A stretch of DNA of 64,000 nt, taken from Enterobacter phage fGh-Ecl02. The stretch lies in the sequence record ON212266.1, one strand, 5' to 3'. The notes under the pieces are model-generated. The model saw only the letters and a list, made by a program, of their open reading frames with translations, made no database searches and was not told the origin of the DNA. This document shows, piece by piece, positions 5,628 to 59,443 of this stretch (within the stretch, counting starts at the first letter, position 1; each line of letters starts with the position of its first letter). A program made the translations under genes and the position numbers.

Positions 5628-5640
5628 AAATAATTCAATA

Positions 5641-5663
5641 AAAGGGGCTTTGCCCCTTTACTT
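5641..5663 (+). terminator. Stem-loop terminator AAAGGGGC-TTT-GCCCCTTT
   Basis: Perfect 8 bp GC-rich stem followed by TTTAC. Confidence 0.5.
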
Positions 5664-5733
5664 CTTCAATATCCTTCCCTATACTTCATTCCATAAGCAG
5701 TACGACACCAACTTGAATAGCAGGAACTATATC

Positions 5734-6069
5734 ATGACACAACTCAAGAACTTCACCGCCGATGACATGTTTGCCTTCCAGGGTGCTGAGCACTTTGCTG
5801 ACGGCTCCGTACCTCGCATCTACTACTTCTCCGACGAAGAAATGGAAGATTTCTTCTCCCTGATGGAAAAGGACTACGAACCAGACGACTTCGTTTATAT
5901 CATCCATCACGCTGAAGGACTGACCTTGGGTTGGACGGCCAACAATGAACCAGAAGAAGTAAACTTCCCTGAAGGTATCATGTCAGAGCGCGTCGAATAT
6001 CTACTGGAAGCCCTGGACCCCCACACCCTCCCGCTCTGGGCGATGTCTGTAGCCCAAGTTCAAAAATAA
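5734..6069 (+). CDS. Hypothetical acidic protein (111 aa)
   Basis: Start embedded in the conserved 17-mer GGAACTATATCATGACA; the ORF-track start at 5650 is unlikely. Confidence 0.45.
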   Translation: MTQLKNFTADDMFAFQGAEHFADGSVPRIYYFSDEEMEDFFSLMEKDYEPDDFVYIIHHAEGLTLGWTANNEPEEVNFPEGIMSERVEYLLEALDPHTLPLWAMSVAQVQK

Positions 6070-6144: not shown

Positions 6145-8886
6145 ATGTCAAAGCTAAGTTTCCTCCAGTTCATGCAGGAAAGAGATCAGTTGGACGAAGC
6201 GTTCAACTCCGCTCCGTATGAGCTGACCATGGGTAAGAAGAACGCAGGCGATGTGTTCTTCACCTTCGTCGACGAAGATGAAAAGGAATACCGCATTCAG
6301 TTCTATACTCCTCAGGGGCTGGGTAAGAGTGTTCGTCAGGTTTTCATCGGCCAGAAGCGCGGCTCCGTCTATCCTGACGCCATCGCTCGCTTCAAGAACC
6401 CAATGCGCGTTATCGCTTCCATGATCGAAGCGACCAAACAATTCATGGCGACTCCTCTGGGCAAGACCATCGATGGCTTTGCTGTCAACTTCTCTAAGAA
6501 AGCGCTGGATCGTGGGATGACCCTGATCCCGAAAATCATCCGCCAATCCGGCCTGAAGCAGAAACTGAATGTCATGGACCTGACCTACGCGCCTGTCCCT
6601 GACCGTGGTTATGTGTGGCTGGTACGCAAGGGTAAAGATCCGGCTCAGGTATTTGACGGTCCGAAGATGCAGGGCATCACCTGGGATGATCCAGATAAGG
6701 TCGGCGACGTTCCGGTTCAGAACAATGCTCCGGATGTGGGTGTGTCATCTTCTGTTGATAATTCCAACGGATGGAAATTAACTTCAAACGGGGATCAGCC
6801 CATGTTGATATGGGCTGGTAAGGAGAGAGGCCGCATGAACACGGCAAATATCGCTCCCCACTACAATGAGCCGGGCGTGTATGTTGGCGCATACATGAAT
6901 GAGAAACCTGTGCGTGGGCAAAGTGCTGATTTCATTACTCGTCAGTTGAAATTACCACAAGTCCCTATCAGTATCCTGAATGATTTCACCGCAGCGTCCA
7001 CAAAATTCTGGAAAGGTTCTCAACAGAAATCTGCGCCTGTTGTACCGGCAGGTTCAGACAGAAATAACCCAGCTAACATTATCGGTTCTGGAACTGCTGT
7101 TATTGATGCCAAACGACTTGGTGCTCGAGAAGTAAACGTGGAACGATTCAAAAACGGTGTTCGCATGCGTTCTCAAAACGGTGACGTCGACATCAGTATT
7201 TCTGACCCAGACTTTTCAAATGCAGCAAGTGCTACTGATGCTGCTACTGCCTCTGTTGTGGTCAAGAACGGGCGTTACGAAGGTGCCATCAATTCAAAGC
7301 GCAAGATTGCCCGCACCTCGAACGAGCAGGGTACTGAATGGGATATCATCGGTGTCAACGGGGAAACCCTTGTCTCTATCAAGTTGAACAAAGTGTCTAA
7401 ATCCGCATCGGATTCGACCGAGAGTGCAACCAGTGTTGATCAATTACGTGACAGCGGTTTCATCGCTCGTGTTCTGGGTATCATTGATACCAACGTTGGG
7501 CTGGACACTTCTATCCTTCCTGGTGAAAACATCCGTCGCGTGGGTGCTGGTCGTTACACGACGGCAGGCGGGTTGGTTATCATTGTCAACTTCACAAACG
7601 TCCTCGCTGGTTTCGTTCAATACTCAGTTTTCAGCGAAATTGCTGAAGAGGAGAACGTGGCCAAAGGTAGCGCCCGTGACGTCGCCAAGGCGGTAATTGC
7701 GTCCATCTTTGAGGTTGCTAAGACCCAGTACACTGGCAAATGGGAAATTAGCGCAGTGCCAACAAGCGCTCCATATCCTATCAAAGCCATTCGCCGTTCT
7801 CGGGGCTGGGGTTATGTGGAAACCGCAAACTGGACTCTGACAGTGTCCGACGCTGTCCTGAACCGCGTGAAGCCAGGGAACACTGCTCTACTGGAACTCA
7901 ACAAAGAGCCTCTGCGCGGCAAGCACCTGCTGGAAATCATCCCAGAGAAGGGCGACAAGACCCTGATGCTGAAAGATCGTAGCGGGACCATCTATGGTTC
8001 TATCGACCTGAATGCCCAGGGTGCTGATCTGGTCAACTCTGGAACCCTGAAGATGCCACGCAACGCCATGGTGTTTGGTGAGACTGTCAACGGTATGTCC
8101 ATCACTTGGTCTGGTGTCAATTTCCCGAAAACTGGGAAGTATGATGGTGCTGTATTGACCACGAATGTGACCTATTACTACGACAAAGGAAAGGTCGCAT
8201 TCACGCCTATGGTATCCAATAAAGGTCGTACCCTGAACAATCCGAAGACATATGAACTTACTTTGAAGAAAGATATTGTTCAGGCCGTGATCGATGAAAT
8301 TTCTTCTAACATGGAAATGATATCTCGGAATATGCAAACTCTGAAAAGCACGTCGTATAATCCGAAACAAGTATTTTTGGACGACATTTCTGTTGACAAC
8401 AACGGTTCAGTCCTTTGGCGCGGGTACGACATGGCGGATCGCCGCACTAATGATTTTATGTTGGGTATCCTATCCAAAGAAACCGAGAGACTGGAGAAAG
8501 AGTCGAGTACTGCGAAGAAGACTGGTGCCGACCTTGCGGCATACGCTGACTCCATCCGCGACAACGCACCAAAAGGCCGCGACCTGGATTGGCAGATCTA
8601 TGCAAGCCGTGATGGTCAGACTCTGAACGTGGACTGGGATATCACCTTCCGCCGCAACACAACTGAAGGGGCATATCGCGAGTTCAAATCTCAGATTGAC
8701 CGCGCCAACCAGTACCTGCAGACTCTGTACCGGGATGCGAAGTCCAAGGGTTACAACCCGACTGAACCAAACCTGATGACTCTGGATAGCGCCCAGCAGT
8801 CTGACCAGTGGGCACGAGACTACGGGGAAGGCGCATACAGCGAGTACGAGCAGTCCCTGGGTGGTAACATGCAGATTAAGATCTGA
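6145..8886 (+). CDS. Large hypothetical protein (913 aa), function unknown
   Basis: Long uninterrupted ORF with GGAG RBS; no recognisable catalytic motifs; not similar to T4 Alt or RIIA by eye. Confidence 0.6.
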   Translation: MSKLSFLQFMQERDQLDEAFNSAPYELTMGKKNAGDVFFTFVDEDEKEYRIQFYTPQGLGKSVRQVFIGQKRGSVYPDAIARFKNPMRVIASMIEATKQFMATPLGKTIDGFAVNFSKKALDRGMTLIPKIIRQSGLKQKLNVMDLTYAPVPDRGYVWLVRKGKDPAQVFDGPKMQGITWDDPDKVGDVPVQNNAPDVGVSSSVDNSNGWKLTSNGDQPMLIWAGKERGRMNTANIAPHYNEPGVYVGAYMNEKPVRGQSADFITRQLKLPQVPISILNDFTAASTKFWKGSQQKSAPVVPAGSDRNNPANIIGSGTAVIDAKRLGAREVNVERFKNGVRMRSQNGDVDISISDPDFSNAASATDAATASVVVKNGRYEGAINSKRKIARTSNEQGTEWDIIGVNGETLVSIKLNKVSKSASDSTESATSVDQLRDSGFIARVLGIIDTNVGLDTSILPGENIRRVGAGRYTTAGGLVIIVNFTNVLAGFVQYSVFSEIAEEENVAKGSARDVAKAVIASIFEVAKTQYTGKWEISAVPTSAPYPIKAIRRSRGWGYVETANWTLTVSDAVLNRVKPGNTALLELNKEPLRGKHLLEIIPEKGDKTLMLKDRSGTIYGSIDLNAQGADLVNSGTLKMPRNAMVFGETVNGMSITWSGVNFPKTGKYDGAVLTTNVTYYYDKGKVAFTPMVSNKGRTLNNPKTYELTLKKDIVQAVIDEISSNMEMISRNMQTLKSTSYNPKQVFLDDISVDNNGSVLWRGYDMADRRTNDFMLGILSKETERLEKESSTAKKTGADLAAYADSIRDNAPKGRDLDWQIYASRDGQTLNVDWDITFRRNTTEGAYREFKSQIDRANQYLQTLYRDAKSKGYNPTEPNLMTLDSAQQSDQWARDYGEGAYSEYEQSLGGNMQIKI

Positions 8887-9560: not shown

Positions 9561-9593
9561 GATCCCCCTAAATACAGGGGGATTTCTTTTTCT
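9561..9593 (+). terminator. Rho-independent terminator ATCCCCCT-AAATAC-AGGGGGAT followed by TTCTTTTTCT
   Basis: 8 bp stem plus T-rich tail. Confidence 0.6.
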
Positions 9594-9606: not shown

Positions 9607-9960
9607 ATGGTTAACGCGAGTATTTTCATCAACCGTGGACTGCTTGCTATAGCCCACTCTCATGCCTTGCACTTCGTTACAACATCCTATTCCAAGCACA
9701 AGGCACTCGGGGAGTTCTACGGGGAATTGGAGGGCTTGCTGGACACGTTTACCGAAGCATACATCGGTGCGGGTGGTCAGTATGTTCCATCATTCGAGAA
9801 TATCAAATTGTACAACCCAGACCCTATCTCCTATATTAACAGTGTGGTGATAGACGTCGACGGCATCTACAGGCAGTGCGACTCCCACCTTCAGAGCACT
9901 CTTGACGATATCAAGACACTGTGCTATCAGACGATCTACAAACTGAAGCAGCTGTCGTAA
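9607..9960 (+). CDS. Hypothetical protein, possibly a ferritin/Dps-like helical bundle
   Basis: GAGGA RBS; weak Dps-like pattern HSHALHFVT...HKALGEFYGELE. Confidence 0.35.
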   Translation: MVNASIFINRGLLAIAHSHALHFVTTSYSKHKALGEFYGELEGLLDTFTEAYIGAGGQYVPSFENIKLYNPDPISYINSVVIDVDGIYRQCDSHLQSTLDDIKTLCYQTIYKLKQLS

Positions 9961-11917: not shown

Positions 11918-11945
11918 AGGCCTCATCGAATGAGGCCTTTTAAAA
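11918..11945 (+). terminator. Rho-independent terminator AGGCCTCAT-CGA-ATGAGGCCT + TTTTAAAA
   Basis: Perfect 9 bp stem with U-rich tail. Confidence 0.7.
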
Positions 11946-11969
11946 TACTTCAAAAATATTTTAAAAAAT

Positions 11970-12012
11970 TATTGAAAAAGACTTTACTCTTCAATAATGA
12001 TGCACTATTATA
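11970..12012 (+). promoter_or_regulatory. Sigma70-like early promoter(s): TTGAAA-17-TAATGA and overlapping TTTACT-17-TATTAT
   Basis: AT-rich region with canonical hexamers and spacing, upstream of a highly codon-optimised gene. Confidence 0.5.
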
Positions 12013-12084
12013 GTTCACATAGGGCGGCAACACACCGCCGAATGAAAAGTGAAATGAACCAACTACATTATGAGGAATTATATC

Positions 12085-12573
12085 ATGGCTACCACCAAAA
12101 CTCTGATCACCAACGGCACCATCTCTTTCGAACTGAACACCGAAGTTGCTAAAGTTGAAATGTTCCGCATCGCTCAGGCAGCTGGCTTCACTGGTGGCAA
12201 AACTTCCTTCATGAACCTGCTGAACGGTAAAGTGAAAGCGACTAACGGCTTCACCCTGGTAGAGCAGGTTGTGGTTGATAAAGCTGTGGTTGCTAAGACT
12301 GCTGATAAAGTTGGTATGCTGAAAAACCTGGGTCACGACATCCACATTGTCGAAGCAAACACCGAAACTTACGGCACCATCGTAGTCGGTAAAGGTCGCA
12401 TCCAGCTGAACCCGCTGAACAACGGTTCCTTCTCTGTGATGGTCTTCCCTAAGAAGGGGTACGACAACACCGACATCGTGAAAGCTGTTGGCGGCGAAGC
12501 AAAAGCTCAGTACGTCAAAATGGGTAAACTGAGCGCCGACGCAGTTGAAGCTCTGGTGAGCAAACTGGCCTAA
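12085..12573 (+). CDS. Highly expressed small protein of unknown function (162 aa; could start at 12070)
   Basis: Own promoter and terminator, 5' UTR hairpin GGCGG-N7-CCGCC, extreme major-codon bias; a conserved AACTACATTATGAGGAATTATATCATG box spans both candidate ATGs. Confidence 0.65.
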   Translation: MATTKTLITNGTISFELNTEVAKVEMFRIAQAAGFTGGKTSFMNLLNGKVKATNGFTLVEQVVVDKAVVAKTADKVGMLKNLGHDIHIVEANTETYGTIVVGKGRIQLNPLNNGSFSVMVFPKKGYDNTDIVKAVGGEAKAQYVKMGKLSADAVEALVSKLA

Positions 12574-18046: not shown

Positions 18047-18271
18047 ATGATTACGATCTATTCCAAACAAGGTTGCGCTCAGTGTGTAACAGCCGAAAAT
18101 CTGTGCAAAATGAAAGGGCTGGAACACAAGATCCTCAAGCTGGACAAAGATTACCGGCTGGAAGAACTTCAGCAGTTGACGGGTAAGCCGCGCGTGTCGA
18201 TGCCTGTAATCGTCCTCGCTGACCAGACCGTGACCGACGTTAATGGACTCGCCGCCAGCCTTAAACGCTGA
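18047..18271 (+). CDS. Glutaredoxin-like NrdH/NrdC redoxin
   Basis: CAQC active site near the N-terminus, 74 aa, directly downstream of nrdB. Confidence 0.65.
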   Translation: MITIYSKQGCAQCVTAENLCKMKGLEHKILKLDKDYRLEELQQLTGKPRVSMPVIVLADQTVTDVNGLAASLKR

Positions 18272-18278
18272 CAAGCCA

Positions 18279-18303
18279 AAGCCCCTCAATGAGGGGCTTT
18301 ACT
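18279..18303 (+). terminator. Rho-independent terminator AAGCCCCTCA-AT-GAGGGGCTT + T
   Basis: 10 bp stem after the nrd operon. Confidence 0.65.
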
Positions 18304-18376
18304 TCTATAATCCCTGCGCTTATACTTCCCAGTAATTCATTGGCATTCGCCACAAATTGAAAGCGGGAACTATATC

Positions 18377-18838
18377 ATGACAAACAAAGTACTCACCAAC
18401 CCACTGCACAACTTCGGTTACATTCAACTCCCTCTGGTGATCGACACCCTGTACGCCGACGACAAAGAAGAGATCTGCTGGTCACCCACCGCACTGATTG
18501 AACGCGAAATCTTCAAGTCTGTTGTTGATGTCATGTTCCGTATCGGTCGCAATGGACCTCTGGTCTACCTCGGCAAGGTGACTGAGTTGAAGACAAGCCA
18601 CAACGAACGCTTCCTTCGTATCGATACAACGGGGTGTTCTCATCAGGACTTCAACACATTGCGCAATTATGTTCTGGTCAACCGCCCGGTCAGTCAACAC
18701 CGCCCGTATCTGACTTCAATGCACATCGACAATTTCATCACCGACGTGCACCTCCGCGCCGAAACCCTCCATGAAGAGGAAACAGGCCGAGCTATCGACA
18801 CAGTCTTAAATATGGTTGTGATCACCCTGGCGGAGTAG
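18377..18838 (+). CDS. Hypothetical protein (153 aa)
   Basis: Start embedded in the conserved 17-mer GGAACTATATCATGACA, shared with the gene at 5734. Confidence 0.5.
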   Translation: MTNKVLTNPLHNFGYIQLPLVIDTLYADDKEEICWSPTALIEREIFKSVVDVMFRIGRNGPLVYLGKVTELKTSHNERFLRIDTTGCSHQDFNTLRNYVLVNRPVSQHRPYLTSMHIDNFITDVHLRAETLHEEETGRAIDTVLNMVVITLAE

Positions 18839-27368: not shown

Positions 27369-27401
27369 GGTGAGGACTCCACTTAAATAAAATAACTGTT
27401 G

Positions 27402-27409
27402 TTATTTAT
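27402..27409 (-). promoter_or_regulatory. T4-type late promoter (TATAAATA on the - strand)
   Basis: + strand TATTTATA about 30 nt upstream of the - strand start 27368. Confidence 0.6.
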
Positions 27410-27421
27410 AGGAGTTGACAA

Positions 27422-29235: not shown

Positions 29236-29327
29236 CGTAGAAAGTTAATATTCACGCAAGTTCGCGCTCCGCTTGGTCGCGCACCTTATAACACTAAGGT
29301 GTTAACTTTCTTTTCAATAAAAAGTAG

Positions 29328-36514: not shown

Positions 36515-36551
36515 AATTCAATAAGGCGGGTCATAGGGTATAATTCTATGA
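36515..36551 (+). promoter_or_regulatory. AATTCAAT box plus hairpin TCATAG-GGTATAATT-CTATGA with TATAAT in the loop
   Basis: Seen in sequence, 25-60 nt upstream of ATG 36577. Confidence 0.4.
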
Positions 36552-37242: not shown

Positions 37243-37258
37243 GTCAATAGAACACCAA

Positions 37259-37287
37259 GAAGCCCAGTACTTGACTGGGCTTTTTAA
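37259..37287 (+). terminator. Rho-independent terminator AGCCCAGT-ACTTG-ACTGGGCT + TTTTTAA
   Basis: 8 bp stem with T-run. Confidence 0.7.
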
Positions 37288-37369
37288 CTTCAATAACTTT
37301 ACTTTCAAGAAATAATCGCCTAATATTTAATCTGTATTGAAGAGTTACAACTACATCATGAGGCTGGAA

Positions 37370-38563
37370 ATGAACGTCAAAACATTCAATATTCCGATCG
37401 ACAATGAAGGGTTGGTAGTTGAGCGACTGAAGAAGCTCGAGCGCACTGCCGAAAGGTTGGGTGTTCCGTTTCCGACTGTGACTTATGGTGAACCCTTCAA
37501 AACCCACACCCGCGACTTCACTGGTGAGATCCTTACCCACTGGTGGAAACCTGTTACTCTCGAAGGCGAAGGCATTGACCGCCCCATCTCTTATGGTGGC
37601 TGGAAGATCATCGGTCAGTTCAATCACGAATATCCAAAGGTTATTATTAACCGCCTGTCCGACAACATCAATCCTGACTTCATCCGTCGCTTCGAGACAG
37701 AGAACGTCTCTTGGTGTCAGCATTGCAATCTAGCCATCCGTCGCAAGAACACGTATGTGATTGAAAATGAGGAAACGCATACCCAGATGCTGATTGGTAG
37801 CACCTGTATGCATCATTATGTGCCTCATCAGAAGTCCCTTGACGCGATTATGTCTTACTATCTGGAAATCCAAGAGTTCTTCATGCCAGACGAGGACGAC
37901 CCAGAGGGTATATATCGCGTCCAAAATGAGCGCTTCACCGACACCCACAGTTACCTGCGCGCATGCTTCCAGGTGATGCTGGCAGGCGTGGATATCAAGT
38001 CTGAACTGTTTGATAAAGTACTGGGCTATGTCCGGTCTCACCAGAAACCAAAAGCAGGTTCCGATGAAGAGTATTTCGTAAACAAGGCACACGAATACCG
38101 TGAAGATGCCGAGTCGGAAATGTACCATATGAAGCTTTTCATCAGTGCGCTGTCCGAATCTAATGAGTTCAATGTTCGCCTGAAACGCATGTGTGAACCC
38201 GGCTATCACCTCATCAAGGATAACAACACAGTCCGCTGGGGTGCCAAGAAGTATTACGATTACATCCATCGTCCTCGTACTGACCGCAAGGTGGAGAACA
38301 AATGGGTGGGTGAAGTCGGTGAAATGCTGGAAGTGCAAGTCAGGTTCGATAAGCGCACCTTCCTCTTCTCCAATGAATATGGTGATAGCTACCTGTTTAC
38401 TTTCAAAACAGCAGAAGGCAATACAATTACCTGGAAGACCTCTTATATGGATACAGAGTTCTTGCAGGGCGATATGATCATCCGTGGTCGTGTCAAAGAA
38501 CTGACTGAGTACAACGGCGTTAAACAAACTCAGGTCACCAGAGCCAAATTGAGGAAATTATGA
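37370..38563 (+). CDS. Hypothetical protein (397 aa) with a CxxC...CxHH cluster
   Basis: GAGG RBS before ATG 37370; the upstream in-frame ATG 37359 lies in the conserved CAACTACATCATGAGG box; WCQHC...STCMHH suggests metal binding. Confidence 0.55.
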   Translation: MNVKTFNIPIDNEGLVVERLKKLERTAERLGVPFPTVTYGEPFKTHTRDFTGEILTHWWKPVTLEGEGIDRPISYGGWKIIGQFNHEYPKVIINRLSDNINPDFIRRFETENVSWCQHCNLAIRRKNTYVIENEETHTQMLIGSTCMHHYVPHQKSLDAIMSYYLEIQEFFMPDEDDPEGIYRVQNERFTDTHSYLRACFQVMLAGVDIKSELFDKVLGYVRSHQKPKAGSDEEYFVNKAHEYREDAESEMYHMKLFISALSESNEFNVRLKRMCEPGYHLIKDNNTVRWGAKKYYDYIHRPRTDRKVENKWVGEVGEMLEVQVRFDKRTFLFSNEYGDSYLFTFKTAEGNTITWKTSYMDTEFLQGDMIIRGRVKELTEYNGVKQTQVTRAKLRKL

Positions 38564-38679
38564 ATTTGATTGAGTTTGTTCTGAAGTCGTTCGCCTTTGG
38601 TCTGATAGCATGTGGGATGATTACAGCTATGCTTCTCATCATAGCCCTGGTCATCCCCTTTAAGAGGAAGAATGAATGA
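38560..38679 (+). CDS. Small membrane peptide (39 aa), not in the ORF track
   Basis: GAGGA RBS; ATGA overlaps at both ends (38560-38563 and 38676-38679); single TM helix. Confidence 0.4.
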   Translation: MNLIEFVLKSFAFGLIACGMITAMLLIIALVIPFKRKNE

Positions 38680-38876
38680 AACGTGAAATCATGGATGTAT
38701 ACAAACCGGGATCTTGTTGTCCAGGACATGACAAGTATCCGTCTGACACTTACAAGAATCGACGTTCCAAAGCACAACGCTCTAAGAGCATCAAGAAGGA
38801 GCACCGCCACGCTCGTCGGGTTAAGCGCCTTGGGTTAATGTCGGAAGTCAATGGTATCACGTTGGAGGATTTCTGA
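38676..38876 (+). CDS. Small basic protein (66 aa)
   Basis: GGAAG RBS; Lys/Arg-rich. Confidence 0.4.
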   Translation: MKREIMDVYKPGSCCPGHDKYPSDTYKNRRSKAQRSKSIKKEHRHARRVKRLGLMSEVNGITLEDF

Positions 38877-39289: not shown

Positions 39290-39317
39290 AATTCAATAAA
39301 CTATTCACCCATATAAT
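39290..39317 (+). promoter_or_regulatory. AATTCAAT-N14-TATAAT promoter-like element
   Basis: About 30 nt upstream of ATG 39346. Confidence 0.4.
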
Positions 39318-47470: not shown

Positions 47471-47520
47471 GGTCTCAGCCCTTAAATAGATAGAGTGTTA
47501 TGGCTATTTAGGACTAGATT

Positions 47521-50864: not shown

Positions 50865-51205
50865 TATGGTTTCCTCAACCATTCTAAAATCGGTACGTTC
50901 ACAAACCCTTTATGCCAGCGATGGGGTTTATGGCCTCTGTTGTGTTCGAGCAAACACGTGTCCGGTGGGACACTGAAGTGGATGCCGTCGATGTCGTAGT
51001 AATGCCCATCAATCAGAGTATACACATGACCTTCGGTCTGACTGTAATGGATCTCTGCTCGAGGGTACACGTGCTTCAACAACAGAGCGACCTGGTAACA
51101 CTTCCCGTTCTTCCCCACGTACTCGACATCCACCTGTTGTGGAAACACATCTTTGACAAGGTTTATCAATCTCGTGATGTCGTTCACCACAACAGACGGT
51201 TTCAT
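50864..51205 (-). CDS. Hypothetical His-rich protein (113 aa)
   Basis: Compact operon spacing. Confidence 0.4.
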
Positions 51206-51891
51206 TGTTTCCCCTCAAACACGGAAAGTTCATGACGGTGGCGGACACAAGCAGGGCAATCACAGTTCTTTTTCAGAACGGGATATTCACACCAGGTCAT
51301 CAGGCCATAGATCGGTTTCAGGGCTTCGTAGAACCATGTCTTCTTCATGCTGGCGAGAGGGAAGAGAACGGTGATCTCATGTCCGTCTTTGGCCAACATG
51401 TTATAACCCTCCACGATCTTGTTGAAGGCTGGAATCCAGTGGAGAGCGTCGTCTCCGTTGACGTATGCCATCACATAAGTTCTTGGCAGTCCTCGATCAA
51501 AATGGCCGCCCACGAATTGAGTGTTCACTAACCACACAGGGGCTTGAGCCAGACAAGGCCGGAACTCACCAGACTGGATGCTCATTTTGCTGATCGGGGT
51601 TTCCCTGTGATGCCAATGAGTGTTCAACCTCGGTGAATTGGTGGTCACCCACTCCCTGATCTTCTTGCGCGCCCAGTTCTCACGCTTCACCTTGAAGGAG
51701 TTGTTCTCCAGTTCGCAGTAGATCGTGTGAACTTCGTACCCGTGAGCCAACAGCCAGAATAGCATGTACGTGCTGTCCACGCCGCCTGACCAGAACAGAG
51801 TAACCTTCTCCCCGTTGTACGCAAGAGGGTCTTTGTTGTTTGTCATAACATCGCGAACGAAATCACGGTCGTTTATTGATACGTTGATCAT
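51202..51891 (-). CDS. queC: QueC-like PP-loop ATPase (7-cyano-7-deazaguanine synthase family)
   Basis: PP-loop SGGVDS and C-terminal zinc cluster C-x9-C-x-C-x2-C (WCEYPVLKKNCDCPAC), compared with QueC C-x8-C-x2-C-x2-C; 229 aa. Confidence 0.6.
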   Translation of the reverse strand: MINVSINDRDFVRDVMTNNKDPLAYNGEKVTLFWSGGVDSTYMLFWLLAHGYEVHTIYCELENNSFKVKRENWARKKIREWVTTNSPRLNTHWHHRETPISKMSIQSGEFRPCLAQAPVWLVNTQFVGGHFDRGLPRTYVMAYVNGDDALHWIPAFNKIVEGYNMLAKDGHEITVLFPLASMKKTWFYEALKPIYGLMTWCEYPVLKKNCDCPACVRHRHELSVFEGKQ

Positions 51892-52121
51892 GGTTTAATC
51901 AATCCGTTGGCATTGATAATGTAAGACAGGGATTCTTCTGTAGACTCGCGCAAAACACGATAGAACTCATCGGAACTTACAGGGTGACCGTCAAGCATAT
52001 ATGTGTTGCATACAGTGCCATGGGTGTCCTGGGCGTAATGGTGGTAGAACTCAATCCCTTCGATATTGAAGTTCTTTCTGTAACTTCTTGCTGTAGTCAT
52101 AACAGTTTCCAGAGGATTCAT
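51888..52121 (-). CDS. Hypothetical protein (77 aa)
   Basis: ATGA coupling. Confidence 0.4.
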   Translation of the reverse strand: MNPLETVMTTARSYRKNFNIEGIEFYHHYAQDTHGTVCNTYMLDGHPVSSDEFYRVLRESTEESLSYIINANGLIKP

Positions 52122-58334: not shown

Positions 58335-58916
58335 TTATAGACCAAATTTGCTACGCCACTTTTCAACCTTGTGTTCAATAGCGTGCTCCACTTTAATGCG
58401 AGTGGCCATCAAAGAGGATCCACGGATTGCCCCTTCCCCACACCCCATGCGCGCAACATGCTTGATTAGGTCATTGACGAGTTGATCCAATCTGTCTTGA
58501 CTGCGATAAGGCTGGTTGCACAATCGGATAATCCGGCCATGATAATGATGGATAAGATTCAGATGCTTTTGAGGATCACGATCAATCAGACGGAACCAGT
58601 CTTCTTCCAACAGATTAGAAGAAATATCGTTCACTGTCGCCATGTGGTTGATGACAGAGTCGATCATTTCGGCCTTGTTCAGAGAGCCGCGCAATTGGAC
58701 GTCGTCATAATCCATGACGTACAGAAGGTCAATAGCAGAGATAATGACATCAGCAACTTCGCCATTCAACGGCTCGGAAGATGCTATGCCATGAAACACA
58801 TCAGACAGTTCACAGATCTCTTCACCTAGTTTGTTCAGAACAAACACAGGCGAACGGTCTGGGGTATGAGCAGTGCAGTCATAAGAAGTGTCGACGATAG
58901 TGTGTAGAAATTTCAT
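58335..58916 (-). CDS. Hypothetical protein, possibly MazG-like all-alpha NTP pyrophosphohydrolase
   Basis: EPLNGEVADVIISAIDLLYVMD resembles the MazG EE/D motif region. Confidence 0.35.
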   Translation of the reverse strand: MKFLHTIVDTSYDCTAHTPDRSPVFVLNKLGEEICELSDVFHGIASSEPLNGEVADVIISAIDLLYVMDYDDVQLRGSLNKAEMIDSVINHMATVNDISSNLLEEDWFRLIDRDPQKHLNLIHHYHGRIIRLCNQPYRSQDRLDQLVNDLIKHVARMGCGEGAIRGSSLMATRIKVEHAIEHKVEKWRSKFGL

Positions 58917-59416
58917 TTCAAAGTTCCTTGTATGCGGAGACGATTAATGTGGGCAATGATATAGTCCATAGAGTTTTGAAAACTGTATTTCCCGTTCTGA
59001 ACATATGCATGGATCAGGGGTAGGCGACTGTACGCCAATCTGATCTTCAGACGTTCAGGCATTGTCTGGAGTTTCATACTAGTTGCAAATAGGATATCGC
59101 GCTTGAATTCTTCGGTGGACGGGTCCAGGACAATGACGCGAGAAGCCGCCAATCCCTGTCCATATTGCTTGGCCTCATAACCGTCGAGCAGGCGCAGGTT
59201 GTCATCCCTATACTTCAGCCAATACCAGTACCCCTCCATGGAGTTAAACACACCATGTTCATGGGTAGTCATTGGATGATGGGTAAAATGCGAGAGGAAG
59301 CGCCCGAGTTCCGTCTGGCTCCGGCTGTAGATGTTGAAGTGATTCTTACCCTCTGTTGCAGGGGTCATCTTGTTCTGTGGAACGCTCATTAACAGCATCA
59401 TGATGTAGTTTCTCAA
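58913..59416 (-). CDS. Hypothetical protein (start uncertain)
   Basis: N-terminal region lies in the conserved GAAACTACATCATGATG box. Confidence 0.4.
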   Translation of the reverse strand: MRNYIMMLLMSVPQNKMTPATEGKNHFNIYSRSQTELGRFLSHFTHHPMTTHEHGVFNSMEGYWYWLKYRDDNLRLLDGYEAKQYGQGLAASRVIVLDPSTEEFKRDILFATSMKLQTMPERLKIRLAYSRLPLIHAYVQNGKYSFQNSMDYIIAHINRLRIQGTLK

Positions 59417-59443
59417 ATCAAAGTATTGCTGTGTGTAACCAGT

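What the first reader, a model, noticed from the sequence alone, without database searches (positions are those of the whole stretch)
5711..5740. Identical 17-mer GGAACTATATCATGACA spanning the start codons of two unrelated genes (5734 and 18377), part of a wider AACTAYATCATG start-box family
The sequences around ATG 5734 (ACTTGAATAGCAGGAACTATATCATGACACAA) and ATG 18377 (AATTGAAAGCGGGAACTATATCATGACAAACAA) share 17/18 identical bases including the start codon. They also share an upstream TTGAAW-AGC element, yet the encoded proteins are unrelated.

Related boxes occur in four more places:
- AGGAATTATATCATGGC at 12085.
- CAACTACATTATGAGG at 12070.
- CAACTACATCATGAGG at 37359.
- GAAACTACATCATGATG on the - strand at about 59416.

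Conservation through the ATG and into codons 2-3 is characteristic of an RNA operator for a translational repressor (like T4 RegA targets) or of a shared translational enhancer. It is not a coding constraint.
Basis: seen in the sequence. Interest (0 to 1): 0.55.

Follow-up and report, generated by a model that had tools for sequence, protein, structure and literature searches.

The report
Shared promoter-to-start-codon cassette in a phage
The identical 17 bases at two unrelated gene starts are the tail end of a repeated terminator, early promoter, leader and ribosome-binding cassette that this phage family (Ackermannviridae) places in front of many different small early genes; the cassette also marks places where genes are swapped in and out.

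Summary
GGAACTATATCATGACA occurs exactly twice (5723-5739, 18366-18382). It is the longest exact direct repeat in the window, and both copies span a start codon.

It is not an isolated box. Each copy is the 3' end of a roughly 100-nt cassette:
- a GC-rich hairpin;
- a sigma70-like promoter, TTTACT-N17-TATACT;
- a 48-50-nt stretch from the -10 box to the ATG;
- TTGAA at -21/-20;
- an AGGA/GGGA Shine-Dalgarno, then ACTATATC, then ATG.

The window, from an Agtrevirus phage (Ackermannviridae), holds four such cassettes: 5641-5736, 11918-12087, 18278-18379 and 37257-37372. Across the family the same leader and start sequence precedes at least 12 unrelated protein families. Gene insertions and replacements between related phages break exactly at it.

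This matches the "PeSL" mobile regulatory cassettes described for T4-type phages. I found no description of them for Ackermannviridae.

A genuine regA homologue exists in the nearest relative's genome. However, the weaker ATC-ATG context also occurs at late structural genes. The gp44, gp62 and regA starts have no box, and gp45 and rIIB show only a partial resemblance. Codons 2-3 are not conserved across genera.

The best reading is a conserved strong translation start carried on a recombining promoter cassette. Interest is moderate.

The parts
5641..5659 (+). Cassette A: GC-rich hairpin (AAAGGGGC-TTT-GCCCCTTT) after the stop of the upstream gene (TAA 5625-5627). Its 3' arm overlaps the -35 box.
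   Evidence: -12.3 kcal/mol, z = -2.9
5657..5685 (+). Cassette A: sigma70-like promoter, TTTACT (5657-5662), 17-nt spacer, TATACT (5680-5685).
5713..5717 (+). Cassette A: TTGAA element at -21 from the ATG.
5722..5739 (+). Cassette A: Shine-Dalgarno AGGA (5722-5725), spacer ACTATATC, ATG (5734-5736) and codon 2 ACA. Contains the reported 17-mer (5723-5739).
5734..6069 (+). 111-aa ORF of unknown function (phrog_9866), the gene served by cassette A.
18278..18300 (+). Cassette B: hairpin (AAAGCCCCTC-AAT-GAGGGGCTTT) after the thioredoxin/glutaredoxin-like gene (stop at 18269-18271). Its 3' arm overlaps the -35 box.
   Evidence: -16.6 kcal/mol, z = -3.65
18298..18326 (+). Cassette B: promoter, TTTACT (18298-18303), 17-nt spacer, TATACT (18321-18326).
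18357..18361 (+). Cassette B: TTGAA element at -20 from the ATG.
18365..18382 (+). Cassette B: Shine-Dalgarno GGGA, spacer ACTATATC, ATG (18377-18379) and ACA. Contains the second copy of the 17-mer (18366-18382).
18377..18838 (+). 153-aa ORF of unknown function (phrog_3902), conserved across Ackermannviridae.
11918..11938 (+). Cassette C: terminator-like hairpin (AGGCCTCAT-CGA-ATGAGGCCT) followed by TTTT, 45 nt before the -35 box.
11983..12011 (+). Cassette C: promoter, TTTACT, 17-nt spacer, TATTAT, with TTCAATAA in the spacer.
12049..12072 (+). Cassette C: degenerate copy of the composite box (GTGAAATGAACCAACTACATTATG). The Shine-Dalgarno is lost (GG to CC). Its ATG (12070-12072) is in frame and 15 nt before the annotated start.
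   Evidence: the nhmmer match ends in this ATG region
12073..12087 (+). Cassette C: second box with its own Shine-Dalgarno, AGGAATTATATC, then the annotated ATG at 12085-12087 of a 162-aa ORF (12085-12573, phrog_3764).
37257..37285 (+). Cassette D: terminator hairpin (AAGAAGCCCAGT-ACTTG-ACTGGGCTTTTT).
   Evidence: -17.3 kcal/mol, z = -4.9
37298..37326 (+). Cassette D: promoter, TTTACT, 17-nt spacer, TAATAT, with TTCAATAA immediately upstream (37289-37296).
37337..37360 (+). Cassette D: TTGAA (37337-37341, -21 from the box ATG), then AACTACATC and ATG (37358-37360). There is no well-placed Shine-Dalgarno. This ATG is in frame and 12 nt before the annotated start.
37360..38563 (+). GAGG Shine-Dalgarno (37360-37363) and the annotated ATG at 37370 of a 397-aa ORF. 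The relative annotates it as a RecT-like annealing protein; it matches phrog_2319 (unknown function).
59399..59421 (-). Box variant TTGATTTGAGAAACTACATC-ATG at the start of a 162-aa ORF (58913-59401, minus strand; 'virion structural protein' in the relative). There is no TTTACT promoter directly upstream.

Best explanation
**What it is.** The 17-mer is the 3' end of a dispersed, homologous regulatory cassette of Ackermannviridae phages. From 5' to 3' the cassette holds:
- a GC-rich hairpin that ends upstream transcription;
- a strong sigma70-type early promoter (TTTACT(T), 17-nt spacer, TATACT(TC), often with TTCAATAA nearby);
- a short unstructured leader, with 48-51 nt between the -10 box and the ATG in most copies;
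- a nearly fixed translation-initiation region: TTGAA, then 4-6 nt, then (A)AGGAAC, then TAYATC, then AUG.

**How it works (inferred).** Host RNA polymerase starts just after the -10 box. The AGGA Shine-Dalgarno sits 8 nt upstream of the AUG, across an A/U-rich, unpaired spacer. This gives efficient, context-independent initiation on whatever ORF follows.

**Why the sequence is identical at unrelated genes.**
- The cassettes are copies of one another, kept similar by recombination.
- The initiation region is under purifying selection across genera.

Because the homology runs right up to and through the ATG, the box also serves as the crossover point for gene insertion, deletion and replacement. 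This is modular shuffling, as described for PeSL cassettes of T4-type phages.

**Shown versus inferred.**
- Shown: the anatomy, the copy family, the start-codon register, cross-genus conservation and the indel junctions.
- Inferred: promoter and terminator activity, translational strength, and recombination as the mechanism.
For: **Anatomy in the window.**
- TTTACT-N17-TAWNNT occurs exactly 4 times in the window (0.09 expected). Each site is followed 32-75 nt later by a box.
- Each promoter has a stable hairpin upstream of it or overlapping its -35 box.
- An nhmmer profile built from cassettes of several genera finds the window copies at 5643-5738 (E = 7e-22), 18277-18381 (2e-20), 11980-12073 (0.01) and, only marginally, 37334-37361 (E = 0.13, box portion only).

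**Genome-wide in the nearest relative (PQ306799).**
- Of the 9 exact TTTACT-type sites, 8 lie 28-73 nt before an annotated start. Seven of those have a box-type initiation region. The distance from -10 to ATG is 48-51 nt in five.
- 35 of 193 starts have ATC at -3 to -1. 14 have TAYATC abutting the ATG, and 12 of those 14 follow an intergenic gap of 40 nt or more (Fisher p = 0.005).
- TTGAA peaks at -21: 6 occurrences against 0.4 expected per position.

**Conservation across genera.** Upstream of the 18377 ortholog, the leader between the -10 box and TTGAA diverges, but TTGAA, GGA(A/C)ACTATATC and ATG are kept. This holds in Taipeivirus and in Nezavisimistyvirus, where the protein is only 29% identical.

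**Restricted to this family.** An IMG/VR scan for TTGAA-N4-6-GGAACTAYATCATG hit 33 loci. All are in contigs of about 150-160 kb, the size of Ackermannviridae genomes, or in shorter fragments. The motif precedes at least 12 mutually unrelated proteins.

**Junctions at the box.**
- L014 and L040 share the 75 nt shown upstream of TTGAA and the composite box through the ATG. They then carry unrelated 122-aa and 123-aa genes in the same slot that holds the window's 5734 gene.
- Kuttervirus CBA120 and Vi01 have cassette B followed by an extra ORF (MTNSE...), inserted before the 18377 ortholog.
- The relative carries an extra 91-aa gene between two box copies. In the window the two alignment pieces overlap by 28 nt, and the overlap is exactly the box.

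**Fit to the known model.**
- Box initiation regions are less structured than others (0.56 against 0.48 unpaired, p = 0.01).
- The PeSL description covers a stop codon in an AT-rich region, a sigma70 promoter, a stem-loop, and a Shine-Dalgarno with start codon at the 3' end (PMC2839356).
Against: - There is no experimental transcription start, terminator or translation data for these phages. The CBA120 paper states that early promoters could not be found by informatics.
- Box copies also occur without a TTTACT promoter directly upstream, at window 59401 and at relative genes 61663 and 96605. The initiation-region motif is therefore more general than the cassette.
- Conservation of all 8 spacer bases across genera is more than a Shine-Dalgarno and A/U-rich spacer needs. 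This leaves room for a sequence-specific factor.
- Only 1 of 7 indels of 200 bp or more between the window and its nearest relative is bounded by the box itself. Box-mediated recombination is one route among several.
- The -35 box TTTACT matches TTGACA at only 4 of 6 positions.
Confidence: 0.68

Rival explanations
1. **RNA operator for a translational repressor.** The box, with or without TTGAA, is bound on the mRNA by the phage's RegA homologue or another RNA-binding protein. The protein competes with the 30S subunit and shuts off a set of early genes later in infection. This could coexist with the cassette explanation.
For: - A full-length RegA-family protein (PF01818, 118 bits) is encoded in the nearest relative, in T4-like synteny after gp45/44/62. 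It is conserved in Ackermannviridae.
- The box overlaps the AUG, is about 67% A+U and is unstructured. These are traits of T4 RegA sites (PMC3014915).
- The spacer sequence is conserved across genera beyond what a Shine-Dalgarno needs.
- Box genes are mostly promoter-proximal early ORFs.
Against: - T4 and RB69 RegA sites show no clear consensus and have a 5' poly(A) tract or UAA repeats. The box has neither.
- The starts of the gp44, gp62 and regA homologues lack the box. gp45 (GGATACATACAA-ATG) and rIIB (GGGAACTACAAG-ATG) resemble it only partly.
- The ATC-ATG context is also used by late, highly expressed structural genes.
- Identity by descent of the whole cassette explains the sharing without any operator.
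- There are no binding data.
Confidence: 0.15
2. **Convergent optimisation only.** The family simply has a preferred optimal ribosome-binding context (AAGGAA-N-TAYATC-AUG). Unrelated genes have drifted to it independently, with no shared ancestry and no role in recombination.
For: - 18% of all starts have ATC at -3 to -1, including late genes. The position-weight matrix shows A at -3 and T at -2.
- The box resembles other strong phage ribosome-binding sites, such as T7 gene 10 AAGGAGATATACATATG. That comparison is from my own knowledge.
Against: - The similarity extends far upstream of the ribosome-binding site, through the hairpin, the -35 box, the spacer, TATACTTC and blocks of the leader.
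- Four in-register runs of 17 nt or more exceed the position-weight null.
- Identical cassettes of 100 nt or more are joined to unrelated genes.
Confidence: 0.1
3. **DNA-level promoter element.** TTGAA acts as a -30 box for a phage activator and TAYATC as a -10-like box, about 10 bp apart. This would be analogous to a T4 MotA-dependent middle promoter.
For: - The spacing between TTGAA and TAYATC is nearly constant at 9-10 nt. This is close to the gap between the MotA box and the -10 box in T4, a figure I give from my own knowledge.
- At 12070 and 37358 the real start lies 12-15 nt downstream of the box.
Against: - TAYATC lacks the conserved final T of a -10 hexamer.
- The motif abuts the ATG exactly in 14 genes, so transcripts would begin inside the ORF.
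- A Shine-Dalgarno sits between the two halves at the correct distance from the AUG.
- No MotA or AsiA homologues are reported in these phages (PMC3184105).
Confidence: 0.04
4. **Chance.** This is a chance repeat in a 64-kb window.
For: A 17-nt exact repeat somewhere in a Markov-1 random window of this size occurs about 7.5% of the time.
Against: - Both copies are in register with start codons and sit the same distance from matching promoters.
- The motif recurs at starts genome-wide.
- It is conserved across genera and specific to Ackermannviridae in IMG/VR.
Confidence: 0.02

Closest known systems
PeSL (promoter-early stem-loop) mobile regulatory cassettes of T4-type phages (Arbiol et al. 2010, PMC2839356; Comeau et al. 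2014, PMC4122927)
   Same: - It is a composite unit: an upstream stop codon, a stem-loop terminator near or overlapping the promoter, a sigma70-like early promoter, and a Shine-Dalgarno with start codon at the 3' end.
- Many dispersed copies lie mainly in front of small ORFs of unknown function.
- Insertions, deletions and replacements between related phages are bounded by the cassettes.
   Different: - It is found here in Ackermannviridae, not in the T4-like phages where PeSLs were described.
- The consensus differs: -35 TTTACT, -10 TATACTTC, and TTCAATAA motifs.
- The 3' part is far more fixed than the PeSL description states (TTGAA at -21, AGGAAC, TAYATC, ATG), with a near-constant distance of about 49 nt from -10 to ATG.
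- Promoter and terminator activity and mini-circle formation are untested here.
T4 RegA translational operators (Uzan & Miller 2010, PMC3014915)
   Same: - Single-stranded, A+U-rich sites overlapping or just 5' of the initiator AUG of several early and middle mRNAs.
- A regA homologue is encoded by this phage lineage.
   Different: - RegA sites have no strong consensus. The T4 SELEX product is aaAAUUGUUAUGUAA, and RB69 selects UAA repeats.
- The box is a sharp consensus with no poly(A) tract.
- It is missing from the starts of the gp44, gp62 and regA homologues.
- No binding has been tested.
Consensus early promoter and ribosome-binding regions of T4 (Liebig & Rüger 1989, cited in PMC3184105; Hinton 2010, PMC2988021)
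   Same: - Phage early promoters carry extra conserved positions beyond the -35 and -10 boxes.
- They sit in front of early genes with stereotyped ribosome-binding sites.
   Different: - The sequences are different.
- For ViI-like phages the published analyses found only about 8 sigma70-like promoters, and early promoters could not be identified.

Membership tests
PeSL-type regulatory cassette | Sigma70-like -35 and -10 promoter boxes | tested here: met
   TTTACT-N17-TA(T/A)NNT occurs 4 times in the window against 0.09 expected and scores 9/12 in the consensus scan. This is a sequence match only; activity is untested.
PeSL-type regulatory cassette | Stable stem-loop next to or overlapping the promoter | tested here: met
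   Hairpins of -12.3 to -17.3 kcal/mol, z = -2.9 to -4.9. Two of them overlap the -35 box.
PeSL-type regulatory cassette | Shine-Dalgarno and start codon of the downstream gene at the 3' end of the unit | tested here: met
   AGGA/GGGA, then an 8-nt spacer, then ATG at 5722-5736 and 18365-18379. The nhmmer cassette model runs through the ATG.
PeSL-type regulatory cassette | Many dispersed copies, mostly upstream of ORFs of unknown function | tested here: met
   4 copies in the window. 9 exact TTTACT-type sites in the relative's genome, 8 with a start 28-73 nt downstream. The downstream genes fall in PHROGs of unknown function.
PeSL-type regulatory cassette | Indels and replacements between related phages bounded by the cassette | tested here: met
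   Box-to-box 28-nt overlap at the indel of relative gene _086. The same cassette is joined to unrelated genes in L014 and L040. An extra ORF follows the cassette in Kuttervirus. Only 1 of 7 indels in the closest pair is box-bounded.
PeSL-type regulatory cassette | Demonstrated promoter and terminator activity; mini-circle formation | not testable with these tools
   Needs reporter assays, PCR for circular junctions, or transcription start mapping.
PeSL-type regulatory cassette | Host phage is a T4-type myovirus (the group in which PeSLs were defined) | tested here: not met
   The window is Agtrevirus, Ackermannviridae. This family is related to T4 only distantly, so I file this as the same kind of element in a new family, not as a described PeSL.
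RegA operator | A regA gene in the same genome | tested here: met
   PF01818, E = 2e-34, in the relative at 97-98% nucleotide identity, in gp45/44/62-regA synteny. It is not inside the window.
RegA operator | Site overlaps or lies just 5' of the AUG, is A+U-rich and unstructured | tested here: met
   The box spans -9 to +6. 10 of 15 bases are A or U. Mean unpaired probability is 0.55-0.62 at 5734 and 18377.
RegA operator | Resemblance to known RegA sites (5' poly(A), AAUUAUG-type or UAA repeats) | tested here: not met
   The box is AACUAUAUCAUGACA, with no poly(A) tract and no UAA repeats.
RegA operator | Present at the canonical regulon (genes 44, 45, 62, regA, rIIB) | tested here: inconclusive
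   The box is absent at the gp44, gp62 and regA starts. There is only a partial resemblance at gp45 (GGATACATACAA-ATG) and rIIB (GGGAACTACAAG-ATG). The regulon of this RegA is unknown.
RegA operator | Specific binding and translational repression by RegA | not testable with these tools
   Needs gel shift, toeprinting or in vivo assays.
rRNA-pairing translational enhancer (epsilon or downstream-box type) | Extended complementarity of the motif to 16S rRNA beyond the Shine-Dalgarno | tested here: not met
   Against E. coli rrsH there is no complementary match of 7 nt or more. Duplex energy is -14.6 kcal/mol against a shuffled mean of -16.8.
Known structured RNA family (Rfam) | Match to a curated covariance model | tested here: not met
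   No Rfam hits at gathering thresholds anywhere in the window.

The most novel reading that the evidence does not exclude
The composite motif UUGAA-N5-AGGAAC-UAYAUC-AUG would be more than a good ribosome-binding site carried on a mobile promoter cassette. It would be a family-wide, sequence-specific recognition site on early mRNAs for a phage factor: the divergent 154-aa RegA homologue, or an as yet unknown RNA-binding protein or nuclease. That would define a sharply specified post-transcriptional regulon in Ackermannviridae, in contrast to the consensus-poor RegA sites of T4. Any gene captured behind the cassette would join the regulon automatically.
Probability: 0.17. Interest if true: 0.6.

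Novelty: new member of a known kind. Interest (0 to 1): 0.4.

Why it matters
- **Early promoters.** Published analyses of ViI-like (Ackermannviridae) phages could not define their early promoters (PMC3184105). This cassette gives a concrete, testable early promoter, leader and ribosome-binding consensus for a family widely used in phage therapy and biocontrol.
- **Annotation.** It helps with start-site choice, for example the double ATGs at 12070/12085 and 37358/37370.
- **Genome evolution.** It explains how small genes of unknown function are swapped between genera, with breakpoints exactly at the start codon.
- **Engineering.** The cassette could serve as a portable expression module for engineering these phages.
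- **Possible regulation.** If a factor reads the fixed start sequence, that factor would control a whole class of early genes.

Tried and rejected
- **Pairing to 16S rRNA.** No complementarity beyond chance.
- **Conserved RNA structure around the box.** Minimum-free-energy folds are weak and differ between loci. The region is, if anything, less paired than other start regions. There are no Rfam hits.
- **A promoter built from TTGAA and TAYATC.** Rejected on geometry: the motif abuts the ATG, a Shine-Dalgarno lies between the halves, and the -10-like hexamer lacks the final T.
- **TTGAA as an in-frame TTG start.** It is in frame at 5713 but not at 18357.
- **Coding constraint or paralogous N-termini.** The proteins are unrelated, and codon 2 varies between genera.
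- **Literature.** Searches for a prior description of Ackermannviridae early promoters or cassettes found none in the held library. The AG3, CBA120 and LIMEstone papers list only a few sigma70-like promoters.
- **Pfam on the box-served proteins.** No domains.
- **Statistics on length alone.** The 17-mer by itself is only marginally unexpected. The case rests on register, context and conservation.
Full report
**1. What the window is.**
The window is 97-98% identical over long stretches to Agtrevirus phages of the family Ackermannviridae. The nearest record is Salmonella phage vB_CECAV_050, PQ306799.1, followed by Escherichia phages RPN242, A221 and AV101 and by Shigella phage Ag3. The window corresponds to the reverse complement of about 2.7-68 kb of that record. 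I fetched the whole 152-kb relative genome with its 194 annotated CDS as a proxy for the rest of the window's genome.

**2. The observation.**
- GGAACTATATCATGACA is present exactly at 5723-5739 and 18366-18382. It extends to 20/21 identity.
- It is the only exact direct repeat of 17 nt or more in the window. A repeat of that length somewhere in a random Markov-1 window occurs about 7.5% of the time, so length alone is not compelling.
- The four additional boxes exist. AACTAYATCATG with up to 1 mismatch gives 8 hits against 0.48 expected.
- Six of those 8 lie at, or 12-15 nt before, gene starts mapped from the relative's annotation.
- In the relative's whole genome a relaxed pattern gives 11 hits, 9 of them at or just before annotated starts.
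- I built a position-weight null from that genome's own 187 ATG starts. It yields an in-register shared run of 17 nt or more in 3% of simulations. Four such pairs are observed, of 20, 18, 17 and 17 nt.
- The two proteins are unrelated.

At 12070 and 37358 the box ATG is an in-frame upstream ATG without a properly placed Shine-Dalgarno. The annotated starts are 12085 and 37370.

**3. The box is the end of a larger unit.**
- The pattern TTTACT-N17-TAWNNT occurs exactly four times in the window (0.09 expected): at 5657, 11983, 18298 and 37298. Each is followed 32-75 nt later by a box.
- Each promoter has a stable GC-rich hairpin upstream of it or overlapping its -35 box, just after the stop codon of the preceding gene.
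- A profile built from cassettes of several genera finds the window copies with E = 7e-22, 2e-20, 0.01 and, only marginally, 0.13 (box portion only). At the last two loci the model's ATG end falls at the upstream ATG rather than the annotated start.
- In the relative's genome, 8 of the 9 exact TTTACT-type sites are followed by an annotated start within 28-73 nt. Seven of those have a box-type initiation region. The distance from -10 to ATG is 48-51 nt in five.

**4. A family-wide start-site consensus.**
- Among 193 annotated starts of the relative, 35 have ATC at -3 to -1. The next most common triplet is ATT, with 14.
- 14 starts have TACATC or TATATC abutting the ATG.
- 12 of those 14 follow an intergenic gap of 40 nt or more (Fisher p = 0.005).
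- TTGAA peaks sharply at -21, with 6 occurrences against 0.4 expected per position. It co-occurs with TAYATC.
- The composite motif is therefore TTGAA, 4-6 nt, (A)AGGAAC, TAYATC, ATG.
- The weaker ATC-ATG context is also used by late structural genes, including the major head protein, scaffold, portal and baseplate wedge. This points to a general translational preference rather than an early-gene operator.

**5. Conservation across genera.**
Upstream of orthologs of the 18377 gene:
- Limestonevirus, Taipeivirus, Miltonvirus and Nezavisimistyvirus all keep the hairpin and TTTACT-N17-TATA(C/T)T.
- Taipeivirus keeps TTGAAcagcaGGAACTATATC-ATG.
- Nezavisimistyvirus, whose protein is only 29% identical, keeps TTGAAcgtctcaGGACACTATATC-ATG.
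- The leader between the -10 box and TTGAA, and codons 2-3, diverge.

A scan of 2.9 million IMG/VR contigs for TTGAA-N4-6-GGAACTAYATCATG returned 33 loci. All are in contigs of about 150-160 kb or in shorter fragments. There the motif precedes at least 12 protein families that are mutually unrelated by BLASTP.

**6. The box marks gene-exchange junctions.**
- *L014 and L040.* They share the 75 nt shown upstream of TTGAA and the composite box through the ATG. They then carry unrelated 122-aa and 123-aa genes, followed by the same downstream gene. The window holds a third unrelated gene (5734-6069) in that slot.
- *Kuttervirus CBA120 and Vi01.* Cassette B is followed by an extra 77-aa ORF (MTNSE...), inserted ahead of the 18377 ortholog.
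- *The nearest relative.* It has an extra 91-aa gene between two box copies. In the window the two alignment blocks overlap by 28 nt (5710-5737), and the overlap is the composite box. This is the signature of a crossover between direct repeats.
- *Unbiased count.* Between the window and the relative this is 1 of 7 indels of 200 bp or more. Several others also break between a Shine-Dalgarno and an ATG, and two are homing-endonuclease genes.

**7. Rival mechanisms.**
- *RegA.* The relative encodes a full-length RegA-family protein (PF01818, E = 2e-34) directly after the gp45, gp44 and gp62 homologues, as in T4. It is conserved in Ackermannviridae. The box is AUG-overlapping, A+U-rich and unstructured, as RegA sites are (PMC3014915). 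However, known RegA sites lack a sharp consensus and carry poly(A) or UAA features. The box is absent from the gp44, gp62 and regA starts and only loosely echoed at gp45 and rIIB. Shared descent of the cassette already explains the identity. The hypothesis is untested rather than refuted.
- *rRNA pairing.* None was found.
- *Structured RNA.* No Rfam hits and no common fold.
- *A promoter made of TTGAA and TAYATC.* It is unlikely on geometry.

**8. Comparison with what is known.**
The architecture and behaviour match the PeSL cassettes of T4-type phages. Those comprise a stop codon in an AT-rich region, a sigma70-like promoter, a stem-loop, and a Shine-Dalgarno with start codon at the 3' end. 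They are dispersed in front of ORFs of unknown function and mediate modular shuffling (PMC2839356; PMC4122927).

For ViI-like phages, the AG3 and CBA120 papers report only about 8 sigma70-like promoters. The CBA120 paper states that early promoters could not be identified by informatics. LIMEstone lists 5 putative early promoters. I found no description of this cassette or of the TTGAA/TAYATC start motif in the held literature.

I therefore file it as a new member of a known kind of element. What distinguishes it is an unusually fixed 3' translation-initiation module.

**9. Verdict.**
- The finding is real and more than chance.
- The best explanation (confidence about 0.68) is a conserved strong translation start carried on a recombining terminator, early-promoter and leader cassette.
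- The repressor-operator reading (about 0.15, not mutually exclusive) remains open and is directly testable.
- Interest is moderate at 0.4. It is useful for Ackermannviridae transcription and annotation and for understanding gene shuffling, but it is not a new principle.

Noticed in passing
window 5634-5641, 11990-11997, 29313-29320, 36517-36524, 37289-37296, 39292-39299 (and others): TTCAATAA occurs 11 times against 1.97 expected. Most copies lie just upstream of, or inside the spacer of, early-promoter-like sites. These include sites with TATAAT-type -10 boxes that have no TTTACT -35 box (36517, 39292). It may be an UP-like or factor-binding promoter element.
   Followed up: partly
window 12070-12087 and 37358-37372: Both loci share CAACTACATYATGAGG. 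This is a cassette-derived ATG without a Shine-Dalgarno, in frame and 15 or 12 nt upstream of the annotated start. The Shine-Dalgarno of the annotated start is formed by the AGG that follows the first ATG. Which ATG is used is unknown. The arrangement looks like a scar of a cassette fused onto a gene that already had its own ribosome-binding site.
   Followed up: partly
window 38669-38874 and 51205-52108; relative PQ306799 24680-25375 and 8419-9249: Gene-content differences from the nearest relative. The window has an extra 66-aa ORF and an extra block of about 900 nt (229-aa and 77-aa ORFs on the minus strand). The relative has two homing-endonuclease genes that the window lacks. Several of these indels break exactly between a Shine-Dalgarno and the ATG.
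   Followed up: partly
window 6745-6753 (inside ORF 6145-8886): The 913-aa ORF is 1024 aa in the relative. The difference is an in-frame indel of about 321 nt, flanked by a short repeat (tcatcttctg).
   Followed up: no
window 47471-47520 and 27369-27421: Short divergent intergenic regions with palindromic TAAATA...TATTTA arrangements between oppositely oriented structural genes. They look like back-to-back T4-type late promoters (TAAATA). CTAAATAC inside a hairpin at 9565-9581 precedes the gene at 9607.
   Followed up: no
relative PQ306799 76620-76700 and 77176-77260 (outside the window); IMG/VR loci L011, L029, L031, L041, L043: A second cassette type carries the same TTGAA...GGAACTATATC-ATG end but a different promoter part. 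A GC-rich hairpin (ggcgggg TATGAT t accccgcc) presents a TATGAT -10-like hexamer in its loop and is preceded by ttctataa. It serves, among others, an endonuclease V-like ORF (my reading of its N-terminus, from memory of T4 DenV) and the ORF the relative annotates as RNA polymerase ADP-ribosylase.
   Followed up: partly
relative PQ306799 86826-87290 (outside the window): The RegA homologue is 154 aa, with an N-terminal extension of about 23 aa relative to the Pfam model (the match starts at residue 24). The 2011 CBA120 paper stated that only RNase H orthologs had been identified at the translation/RNA level in ViI-like phages.
   Followed up: partly
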